DNA of 64,000 nt. Origin: Novakomyces olei. Its lineage: Eukaryota. How positions within the stretch are numbered: the first letter of the stretch is position 1; every line of letters begins with the position of its first letter. The position numbers were made by a program, and so were the translations under genes. The stretch is from the NCBI GenBank assembly GCA_016906335.1, contig JADEYG010000004.1, forward strand, positions 992,001-1,056,000. The letters are read 5' to 3'. Below are positions 27,359 to 28,635 of the stretch, piece after piece. Below the pieces are notes generated by a model. The model ran no database searches and had not been told where the DNA came from. It saw nothing but the letters and a program-made list of their open reading frames with translations.

Positions 27359-27533
27359 ACGCGTATAATTTCAACATTTTTACTAACAAGACAGATTAAT
27401 AGCAGTCAGATTATCCTACAATAAAGTACGAGTAAATCATGTCGCAATATAACTAAGAAAACCCTATTCTCATTTAAATTAAGACGCGTCGCATTTAATA
27501 TTTTCCACAAAGGCACCAAACCCACATACGCGT
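27359..27533. promoter_or_regulatory. MCB (ACGCGT) cluster upstream of PCNA
   Basis: ACGCGT at 27359, 27484 and 27528, just before the 5'UTR intron donor. PCNA genes are classical MBF targets in yeasts. Confidence 0.8.
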
Positions 27534-27602
27534 CCACCGCGACTTTTACGACTTTGAATCACAAGGTAAGATGCCCCTAAAATTGAGGAACAGGCTTCAG
27601 AG

Positions 27603-27674
27603 ACGCGCAATGATGACAATCATATACATGCATGGCTGTATGAATCTAGTGATTATATCATTTGTCTGAGCGTT
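27603..27674 (+). ncRNA. Box C/D snoRNA candidate in the PCNA 5'UTR intron
   Basis: Box C ATGATGA 27610-16, D' ATGA 27640-43, C' GTGATTA 27649-55 and box D CTGA 27666-69, with terminal stem ACGC/GCGT. The 12-nt ACATGCATGGCT is complementary to the conserved 18S sequence AGCCAUGCAUGU. Confidence 0.85.
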
Positions 27675-27810
27675 GCCGCGTCTGATCCAATTTTTACTCT
27701 TGTGTCAAATCCGCTTTCTTTTCCTTCAGGACTGGACAAAGTATCTGTTTTCTTTTCTATATGCCCAGTGGCTAATTCTGAGCATACATTGTCCTCTTTA
27801 CTAATCCCAG

Positions 27811-28635
27811 ATGTTTGAAGCAAGACTGTCTCAGGCTGTACTACTCAAAAAAGTCCTCGACGCGGTTCGCGACTTGGTCTCAGACGCGAATTTCGACTGC
27901 AATGACTCCGGTTTGGCGCTGCAGGCGATGGACAATTCTCATGTGAGTCTCGTCTCGCTTTTGCTTAAAGCCGAAGGATTTGATCCTTATAGGTGTGATC
28001 GCAATATGGCTCTAGGGATCAATTTGAACTCGTTGAGTAAAGTCTTGCGGTGCGCTGGTAACGAAGATTTGCTTACTCTCAAAGCGCAAGAAAACCCAGA
28101 AACTCTGCATCTTACTTTTGAGAGCAGTACGGCTGACCGTATAAGCGAGTATGATATTAAATTGATGGATATTGATCAGGAGCATTTGGGTATTCCCGAT
28201 GCGGAGTACGATGCGATTATTAATATGCCTTCTGCAGAGTTTCAGCGTATTGTACGCGACCTGTCAGGCATGTCGGAGAGTGTAAAGATTGAGGCTACAA
28301 AAGACAGTGTAAAGTTTTCCTGTGAAGGTGATATTGGCAGTGGATCTGTTACTATTCGGCAGTCGAGCAGTGCGGAAGAGGACACTGCTACTACTATAAA
28401 TCTTACTCAACCAGTACGCCACGCGTTTTCCCTGAAATATTTGAGCAATTTCACAAAGGCAACACCATTGTCGACGCAAGTAGGGATCAGTATGAGCCCT
28501 AAATTTCCTCTCCTCGTAGAGTATAAAATGGAGGGTGGTCATTTGAGGTTTTACCTGGCTCCCAAGATTGGAGATGACGAGGACGATGAAGGTGGTGACG
28601 ATGAGGCAAAGGACGAAGACGCTGACGACGAGTAA
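27811..28635 (+). CDS. PCNA: Proliferating cell nuclear antigen
   Basis: [37 protein letters not shown] and RFYLAPKI. 5'UTR intron 27566-27810 ends directly at the ATG. Confidence 0.99.

What the first reader, a model, noticed from the sequence alone, without database searches (positions are those of the whole stretch)
27603..27674. Box C/D snoRNA inside the 5'UTR intron of cell-cycle-regulated PCNA, predicted to guide 18S near C49
Seen: complete C, D', C' and D boxes, a terminal stem (extendable to AGACGCG/CGCGTCT) and a 12-nt guide ACATGCATGGCT. Known: the guide is the reverse complement of conserved 18S nt 47-58 (S. cerevisiae numbering). The D'+5 rule with D'=ATGA points to C49, which I do not recall as methylated in S. 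cerevisiae. Intronic snoRNA hosts are usually ribosome or translation genes. Inference: hosting in an MCB-driven replication gene could couple an rRNA modification to G1/S.
Basis: partly seen in the sequence, partly recalled or inferred. Interest (0 to 1): 0.7.

Follow-up and report, generated by a model that had tools for sequence, protein, structure and literature searches.

The report
Methylation-guide snoRNA in PCNA leader intron
A small guide RNA that most likely directs a methyl group onto one base of ribosomal RNA sits in an intron just before the start codon of this fungus's PCNA gene; it is the counterpart of a guide already known from Neurospora, here in a different host gene, and a link to the cell cycle is possible but unsupported.

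Summary
The 245-nt intron 27566-27810, ending directly at the PCNA start codon, holds a box C/D snoRNA (about 27605-27673). Its 12-nt guide pairs 12/12 with nt 47-58 of the genome's own 18S rRNA, and D'+5 gives C49. 0 of 20,000 intron shuffles reproduce this. The target is not new: Neurospora Nc CD4 (cloned, northern-positive) has the same guide and spacing, predicted target 18S-Cm49 (PMC2780460). The host is not conserved. 0 of 60 metagenome pattern matches have PCNA nearby; 19 sit in one intron of NFS1. This genome's NFS1 keeps that intron but empty. PCNA has three MCB boxes, so G1/S transcription is plausible. But a non-ribosomal host is ordinary here: an amidophosphoribosyltransferase gene has the same 5'UTR-intron layout. 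Earlier, unchecked scan notes on this genome report other non-ribosomal hosts (TERT, GID8); the word look-up found no note on this guide. Best reading: an ordinary Cm49 guide with a switched host. Cell-cycle-coupled methylation is untested, about 12%.

The parts
27359..27364 (.). MCB box 1 (ACGCGT; motif name recalled)
27484..27489 (.). MCB box 2
27528..27533 (.). MCB box 3; the three form the densest cluster of the 24 ACGCGT sites in the window
   Evidence: best 250-nt count 3; 1 of 200 shuffled windows reaches 3
27566..27810 (+). Predicted 245-nt 5'UTR intron of PCNA (GTAAGA ... ACTAAT CCCAG), ending at the start codon
   Evidence: branch-to-AG spacing matches other introns of this genome; no RNA evidence
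27605..27673 (+). Box C/D snoRNA, about 69 nt, counterpart of Neurospora Nc CD4
27605..27608 (+). 5' arm of terminal (k-turn stem I) helix GCGC, pairs with 27670-27673
   Evidence: sequence
27610..27616 (+). Box C (ATGATGA), 44 nt from the 5' splice site
27626..27637 (+). 12-nt antisense guide to 18S nt 47-58; G27635 pairs with C49
27640..27643 (+). Box D' (ATGA), aligned with invariant CTGA of homologues, 2 nt after the guide
27649..27655 (+). Box C' (GTGATTA)
27666..27669 (+). Box D (CTGA); the bases before it (27662-27665) pair with 27616-27619 and form no rRNA guide
   Evidence: best D-side duplex only -8.5 kcal/mol
27677..27683 (+). CGCGTCT, complementary to 27601-27607; alternative outer pairing, function not shown
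27800..27810 (+). Branch site ACTAAT and 3' splice site CAG
27811..28635 (+). PCNA coding sequence, 274 aa, single copy, one open frame
   Evidence: residue 1 aligns with residue 1 of solved PCNAs

Best explanation
An ordinary intron-encoded, single-guide box C/D snoRNA, the functional counterpart of Neurospora Nc CD4. PCNA pre-mRNA is transcribed and the 245-nt leader intron is spliced out (inferred from splice signals). The lariat is debranched and trimmed by exonucleases to a roughly 69-nt RNA protected by the C/D core proteins (established pathway, inferred here). The D' guide pairs with 18S nt 47-58 (pairing shown in sequence) and fibrillarin/Nop1 methylates the ribose of C49 (inferred from the D'+5 rule). 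PCNA serves as a convenient, essential host. The guide has changed hosts in fungal evolution (NFS1, an eIF3k-like gene, non-coding-looking hosts, PCNA), so the host's function is probably incidental. G1/S-peaked transcription, if present, is probably smoothed out by the long life of the snoRNP (recalled, not tested).
For: Perfect C and D boxes with canonical k-turn spacing and stems. 12/12 guide to own 18S with C49 at D'+5. 0 of 20,000 and 1 of 100 shuffles. Same 12-nt guide, 2-nt spacer and D' position in Nc CD4, which was cloned and seen by northern (PMC2780460 Table 1 and supplement 1). A profile from 17 metagenome homologues, without this sequence, finds it as the only window hit (nhmmer E 0.0025; covariance model E 0.031). 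Hosts differ: 19 of 60 matches in NFS1 (15 distinct sequences), 4 in other hosts, 0 near PCNA. Own NFS1 has the same-position intron (L069:2137-2362) without C box, guide or D box. Same 5'UTR-intron layout at an amidophosphoribosyltransferase gene of this genome (L079). C box 44 nt from the 5' splice site fits the 41-60 nt range reported for Neurospora.
Against: No RNA evidence for splicing, for the small RNA or for the methyl group. In the parts of PMC2780460 that I read, Cm49 is predicted, not mapped. Similarity to the homologues lies only in guide and boxes: permuting the spacers gives an equal or better score in 62 of 200 trials, so common descent from Nc CD4 is not proven. The homologue set was collected with a pattern built on the guide, which makes the profile test partly circular. 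Box D lies 135 nt from the branch A, against about 50 nt in most NFS1-hosted copies. No close relative was available to test whether the PCNA position is kept.
Confidence: 0.8

Rival explanations
1. The placement is adaptive: MBF-driven PCNA transcription makes the snoRNA mainly at G1/S or only in proliferating cells, so Cm49 is substoichiometric and marks ribosomes made during growth.
For: Three MCB boxes upstream of the intron. The motif also marks the ribonucleotide reductase large-subunit gene (4 upstream of its ATG) and the thymidylate synthase fusion gene (1), and is absent from the NFS1, RPS3, amidophosphoribosyltransferase and L091 loci. A KilA-N plus ankyrin protein of the MBF-subunit type is encoded. 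The site is dispensable in yeasts (no S. pombe or S. cerevisiae homologue), as a tunable site might be.
Against: Homologues sit in hosts with no cell-cycle role. [quoted passage not shown] Non-ribosomal 5'UTR-intron hosting occurs elsewhere in this genome. No expression data.
Confidence: 0.12
2. The guide arose independently in this lineage (a different C/D snoRNA that acquired the same target), so it works like Nc CD4 but is not its orthologue. This concerns descent only and is compatible with the mechanism above.
For: No similarity outside guide and boxes (62 of 200 spacer permutations score as well); shorter D'-C' spacer; different host; no remnant in the own NFS1 intron (193 of 2,000 shuffles align as well).
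Against: Same guide side (D'), same guide end, same 2-nt spacer, no D guide, and the unpaired bases just before the guide match those of many homologues. Homologous fungal snoRNAs generally share only boxes and guides (PMC4138321 passage). Only one such guide exists in the genome.
Confidence: 0.2
3. The element is not processed into a working snoRNA (decayed copy, retained or differently spliced intron).
For: No RNA evidence; D' and C' each deviate by one base; alternative AG at 27729-27730 followed by GTATCT at 27742 could split the intron.
Against: All four boxes, both k-turn stems and the guide are intact; it is the only copy. The alternative AG has no branch motif in the preceding bases, whereas the other introns inspected in this genome have one 5-12 nt before the AG. 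A split intron would still release the snoRNA.
Confidence: 0.06

Closest known systems
Neurospora crassa Nc CD4 (EU780928; PMC2780460)
   Same: Intronic box C/D snoRNA; identical 12-nt guide ending 2 nt before D'; predicted target 18S-Cm49; single D' guide; no listed homologue in S. pombe, S. cerevisiae, Arabidopsis or human.
   Different: 81 nt against about 69 nt; D' CUGA against AUGA; long D'-C' hairpin spacer against 5 nt; no similarity outside guide and boxes. The paper names no host in what I read; metagenome copies that closely resemble Nc CD4 by eye sit in an NFS1 coding intron, whereas this copy sits in the PCNA 5'UTR intron.
S. pombe box C/D snoRNAs in UTR introns (PMC4138321)
   Same: Hosting in introns of untranslated regions or non-coding genes is the majority mode (33 of 40 intronic snoRNAs).
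   Different: Supplementary Table S2 lists no 18S C49/C50 guide; those genes are reported to be driven by Homol-D boxes, whereas this host has MCB boxes and no exact Homol-D motif nearby.
Human U17/SNORA73 at the RCC1 locus (PMC7601244 passage)
   Same: A snoRNA in upstream non-coding introns at a cell-cycle gene; the host differs between species (ribosomal protein gene in Xenopus).
   Different: H/ACA class, pre-rRNA processing role, and later assigned to a separate non-coding host gene U17HG.
Rfam release 15 C/D families (SNORD104, SNORD72, SNORD27)
   Same: Generic C, D', C', D box layout.
   Different: All below gathering score (25.5 of 40, 28.7 of 43, 24.7 of 52 bits) and with different guides; not members.

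Membership tests
Box C/D methylation-guide snoRNA | Box C (RUGAUGA) near the 5' end and box D (CUGA) near the 3' end | tested here: met
   27610-27616 and 27666-27669, both perfect
Box C/D methylation-guide snoRNA | Terminal stem giving k-turn geometry | tested here: met
   GCGC/GCGT stem I with 3-nt bulge; ACAA/TTGT inner pairing
Box C/D methylation-guide snoRNA | Internal D' and C' boxes | tested here: met
   ATGA 27640-27643, GTGATTA 27649-27655; D' aligns with invariant CTGA of homologues
Box C/D methylation-guide snoRNA | 10-21 nt complementarity to rRNA just upstream of D or D' | tested here: met
   12/12 to own 18S nt 47-58
Box C/D methylation-guide snoRNA | Stable small RNA bound by Snu13, Nop56, Nop58, Nop1; target ribose methylated | not testable with these tools
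   No RNA or modification data for this organism could be laid on the locus
Nc CD4 family (18S-Cm49 guide) | D' guide to 18S nt 47-58 with C49 at +5 | tested here: met
Nc CD4 family (18S-Cm49 guide) | Sequence similarity outside guide and boxes | tested here: not met
   62 of 200 spacer permutations score at least as high; the claim is therefore 'works like Nc CD4', descent only probable
Nc CD4 family (18S-Cm49 guide) | Profile match to family members | tested here: inconclusive
   Only window hit, but weak: 14.9 bits E 0.0025, 19.9 bits E 0.031; seed collected with the guide pattern
Nc CD4 family (18S-Cm49 guide) | Location in the NFS1 intron, as in most homologues found | tested here: not met
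   Own NFS1 intron at the same position is empty; 4 other homologues also have other hosts
MBF/MCB G1/S regulon (host gene) | Clustered ACGCGT boxes in the promoter and an MBF-type factor in the genome | tested here: met
MBF/MCB G1/S regulon (host gene) | Periodic transcription peaking at G1/S | not testable with these tools
   No expression data
Any Rfam 15 family | Score at or above gathering threshold | tested here: not met
   0 matches in 64 kb

The most novel reading that the evidence does not exclude
In this lineage the 18S-Cm49 guide left the NFS1 intron and was captured by the leader intron of MBF-driven PCNA, so that it is made only at G1/S or in dividing cells. Cm49 would then be a proliferation-linked, partial rRNA mark: a natural case of an rRNA modification wired to the replication regulon. 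The snoRNP on the intron that abuts the start codon might also tune PCNA splicing.
Probability: 0.12. Interest if true: 0.6.

Novelty: new member of a known kind. Interest (0 to 1): 0.25.

Why it matters
As it stands this is a modest addition. It places the Cm49 guide, described in Neurospora and absent from both model yeasts' lists, in a fungus that looks closer to fission yeasts (inferred). It also shows a host switch with the old host intron apparently left in place, and it identifies NFS1 as the usual host in the homologues found, which my searches did not find in print. If snoRNA level and Cm49 did follow G1/S transcription, it would be a clean, testable case of cell-cycle-linked ribosome modification. 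Nothing here shows that.

Tried and rejected
Rfam at gathering score: nothing in the window. Of 12 loci scanned at E 0.05, only RNase MRP and snR67 appeared, so Rfam also misses the Nc CD4-like copy in L010. Sequencing runs: no RNA holder was listed; this is no evidence either way, and no reads were laid. Viral-contig pattern scan: 2 matches, the same chance match in phage-like coding DNA, no PCNA. 34 of the 60 metagenome matches lacked the family's D box and intron context and were set aside as chance by script and eye. Remnant of the snoRNA in the own NFS1 intron: not significant (193 of 2,000 shuffles; best model score 5.6 bits). Second (D-side) rRNA guide: none; snRNA and tRNA targets were not searched. 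Two-intron model with AG at 27729-27730: disfavoured for lack of a branch motif, not excluded. Alternative D' at CTGT 27636-27639 (would give G53): rejected because homologues fix D' 2 nt after the guide. Homol-D motif: only a one-mismatch site at 27403, among 47 such sites in the window against 38 expected. Intron folding is unremarkable (z 0.21). Own-genome scan for intronic C/D elements: 23 matches against 13 in the control, so many are chance; I checked candidate hosts by Pfam for 4 of the 22 other loci. Supplements of PMC5824354, which would show the known range of family CD_4, could not be read, so this lineage may already be listed there. Literature searches listed no paper on a fungal snoRNA in PCNA or NFS1 and only PMC2780460 for 18S Cm49; most listings were seen as titles and abstract starts only.

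Full report
Observation. The window carries a single-exon PCNA frame at 27811-28635, the only PCNA_N match in the genome. Its first residue aligns with residue 1 of solved PCNAs, so 27811 is the true start. Directly upstream lies a predicted intron, GTAAGA at 27566 to ACTAAT-CCCAG at 27800-27810, and no ATG lies between 27442 and the 5' splice site. The intron is therefore in the 5'UTR. It contains box C (27610-27616), D' (27640-27643), C' (27649-27655) and box D (27666-27669), with a 4-bp terminal stem in canonical k-turn spacing and a 4-bp inner pairing. The local fold is not exceptional (17 of 200 shuffles as good).

Target. I fetched the genome's own 18S (L001) and LSU (L004). The stretch 27626-27637 pairs 12/12 with 18S nt 47-58 and is the best rRNA duplex by 4.4 kcal/mol. 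The fifth base before D' pairs with C49. The D side has no rRNA guide. A C box, D box and perfect 12-mer guide before NTGA arose in 0 of 20,000 shuffles of the intron and 1 of 100 shuffles of the window. The guide-plus-D' pattern occurs once in the genome. Rfam gives nothing at gathering score and 11 sub-threshold generic C/D matches.

What it is. Liu et al. 2009 (PMC2780460; I read parts 1-3 of 6 of the text and supplement 1, and searched all 7 supplements) list Nc CD4: 81 nt, intronic, cloned and northern-positive, predicted target 18S-Cm49 through D', with no homologue listed in S. pombe, S. cerevisiae, Arabidopsis or human. Its sequence has the same 12-nt guide, a 2-nt spacer and then D'. 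The S. pombe table of Diao et al. (PMC4138321; passages and Table S2 read, 7 of 9 supplements searched) has no such guide. I saw no direct mapping of Cm49, and a whole-word search for 18S, Cm49 and snoRNA listed only the Neurospora paper. The supplements of 'The fungal snoRNAome' (PMC5824354; abstract, passages and section 21 read) could not be opened and may already record the family in this lineage.

Conservation and host. A metagenome scan for C box, guide and D' gave 60 loci. PCNA matched none of the 60 flanks (up to 2.5 kb each side, some contigs short). In 19 of 60 (15 distinct snoRNA sequences) the element is a full C/D snoRNA in the same intron of a class-V aminotransferase gene with the sequence of the cysteine desulfurase NFS1 (the gene name is my recognition). 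Four more have other hosts: an eIF3k-family coding intron (L061), two non-coding-looking introns (L043, L062) and one unidentified (L048). Three are tandem copies without evident introns (L019, L028, L044). The other 34 were set aside as chance. This genome's NFS1 has an intron at exactly the homologous position (L069:2137-2362), but with no C box, guide or D box and no significant remnant. The host has therefore changed at least once; the direction is not shown. A profile from 17 homologues finds the PCNA-intron element as the only window hit (E 0.0025; E 0.031). The signal comes wholly from guide and boxes, since 62 of 200 spacer permutations score as well, and the seed was collected with the guide pattern. 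So 'works like Nc CD4' is well supported and 'descends from it' is only probable.

Is the host unusual? A scan of the own genome for a 5' splice site followed by C and D boxes gave 23 matches against 13 in the control. Among them are a 14-nt LSU guide in intron 1 of RPS3 (L072); a 14-nt LSU guide in a 5'UTR intron ending 9 nt before the ATG of an amidophosphoribosyltransferase gene (L079), the same layout as at PCNA; and a double-guide RNA beside snR67 upstream of an L11-family gene (L091). In S. pombe only 7 of 40 intronic C/D snoRNAs lie within ORFs. Earlier scan notes, unchecked by me, report snoRNAs in the TERT and GID8 introns of this genome. A non-ribosomal host and a UTR intron are thus ordinary for this kind of fungus. 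Human U17 at RCC1 is an old precedent at a cell-cycle gene (PMC7601244 passages).

The cell-cycle idea. Three ACGCGT boxes lie at 27359, 27484 and 27528, the densest cluster in the window (1 of 200 shuffles). The ribonucleotide reductase large-subunit gene has 4 upstream of its ATG and the thymidylate synthase fusion gene 1, while the NFS1, RPS3, L079 and L091 loci have none. A KilA-N/ankyrin protein is encoded. G1/S transcription of PCNA is thus a fair inference. The step from there to periodic methylation is weak. The same guide does its job from non-periodic hosts elsewhere; a review reports that most intronic snoRNAs do not track host abundance (PMC11028025 passages); and snoRNPs and rRNA are long-lived (recalled). 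A coarser link, synthesis only in proliferating cells, is not excluded. No close relatives and no RNA data were available, so neither conservation of the PCNA position nor expression was tested.

Mechanism, step by step. Shown in sequence: boxes, stems, guide pairing, splice signals, MCB boxes, empty NFS1 intron. From established knowledge: release by splicing, Dbr1 debranching and exonucleolytic trimming (PMC10557570 passages), and the D/D'+5 rule. Inferred: splicing at these sites, accumulation of the RNA, methylation of C49, periodic transcription.

Verdict. A real and ordinary methylation-guide snoRNA, a new member of a known kind, with a host switch as its one notable feature. Interest 0.25. 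The novel reading (cell-cycle- or proliferation-linked Cm49) has about 12% probability and would merit 0.6.

Noticed in passing
L069:2137-2362 (G000:C2, NFS1): The own NFS1 gene keeps an intron at exactly the position that hosts the Cm49 guide in 19 metagenome loci, but it is empty; no significant remnant.
   Followed up: yes
L079 (G000:C4:963827-966952, minus strand): C/D snoRNA candidate with a 14-nt guide to LSU nt 625-638 (snR58-like by recall) in a 5'UTR intron just before the ATG of an amidophosphoribosyltransferase gene; not recovered by Rfam at E 0.05.
   Followed up: partly
L072 (G000:C1:1409411-1412550): C/D snoRNA candidate (guide like Nc CD8/snR48, LSU nt 2767-2780) in the first intron of RPS3.
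   Followed up: partly
L090, L091, L092 (G000:C15): Further C/D candidates: one beside the RNase MRP RNA gene with two guide-like stretches (L090), a double-guide RNA next to snR67 upstream of an L11-family gene (L091), and one in a non-coding-looking intron (L092).
   Followed up: partly
L094:1498-3351 (G000:C5, minus strand): Flavoprotein (Hal3/PPCDC-like) fused to thymidylate synthase in one 617-aa frame, a fusion reported for the genus Schizosaccharomyces (PMC9604783 passages); suggests an early-diverging ascomycete.
   Followed up: partly
L019, L028, L044: Tandemly repeated C/D snoRNAs with the same C49 guide at D' and a second guide at D to the 18S 5' end (nt 4-12 in own numbering, which would point to U8); no intron context seen, organism unknown. 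Suggests that the C49 site is not confined to these fungi.
   Followed up: partly
L061:2015-2093 (minus strand): C49 guide combined with a D-side guide to 18S nt 159-169 (like the D guide of Nc CD32) in an intron of an eIF3k-family gene: a recombined double-guide form.
   Followed up: partly
G000: rDNA units are dispersed: 11 full-length 18S matches on 5 contigs among 12 scored candidates of 24, not one tandem array.
   Followed up: no
window 27694-27783: Inside the intron, a pyrimidine tract and AG at 27729-27730, a GTATCT at 27742 and a second branch-like GCTAAT near 27771 could allow minor alternative splicing of the PCNA leader.
   Followed up: partly
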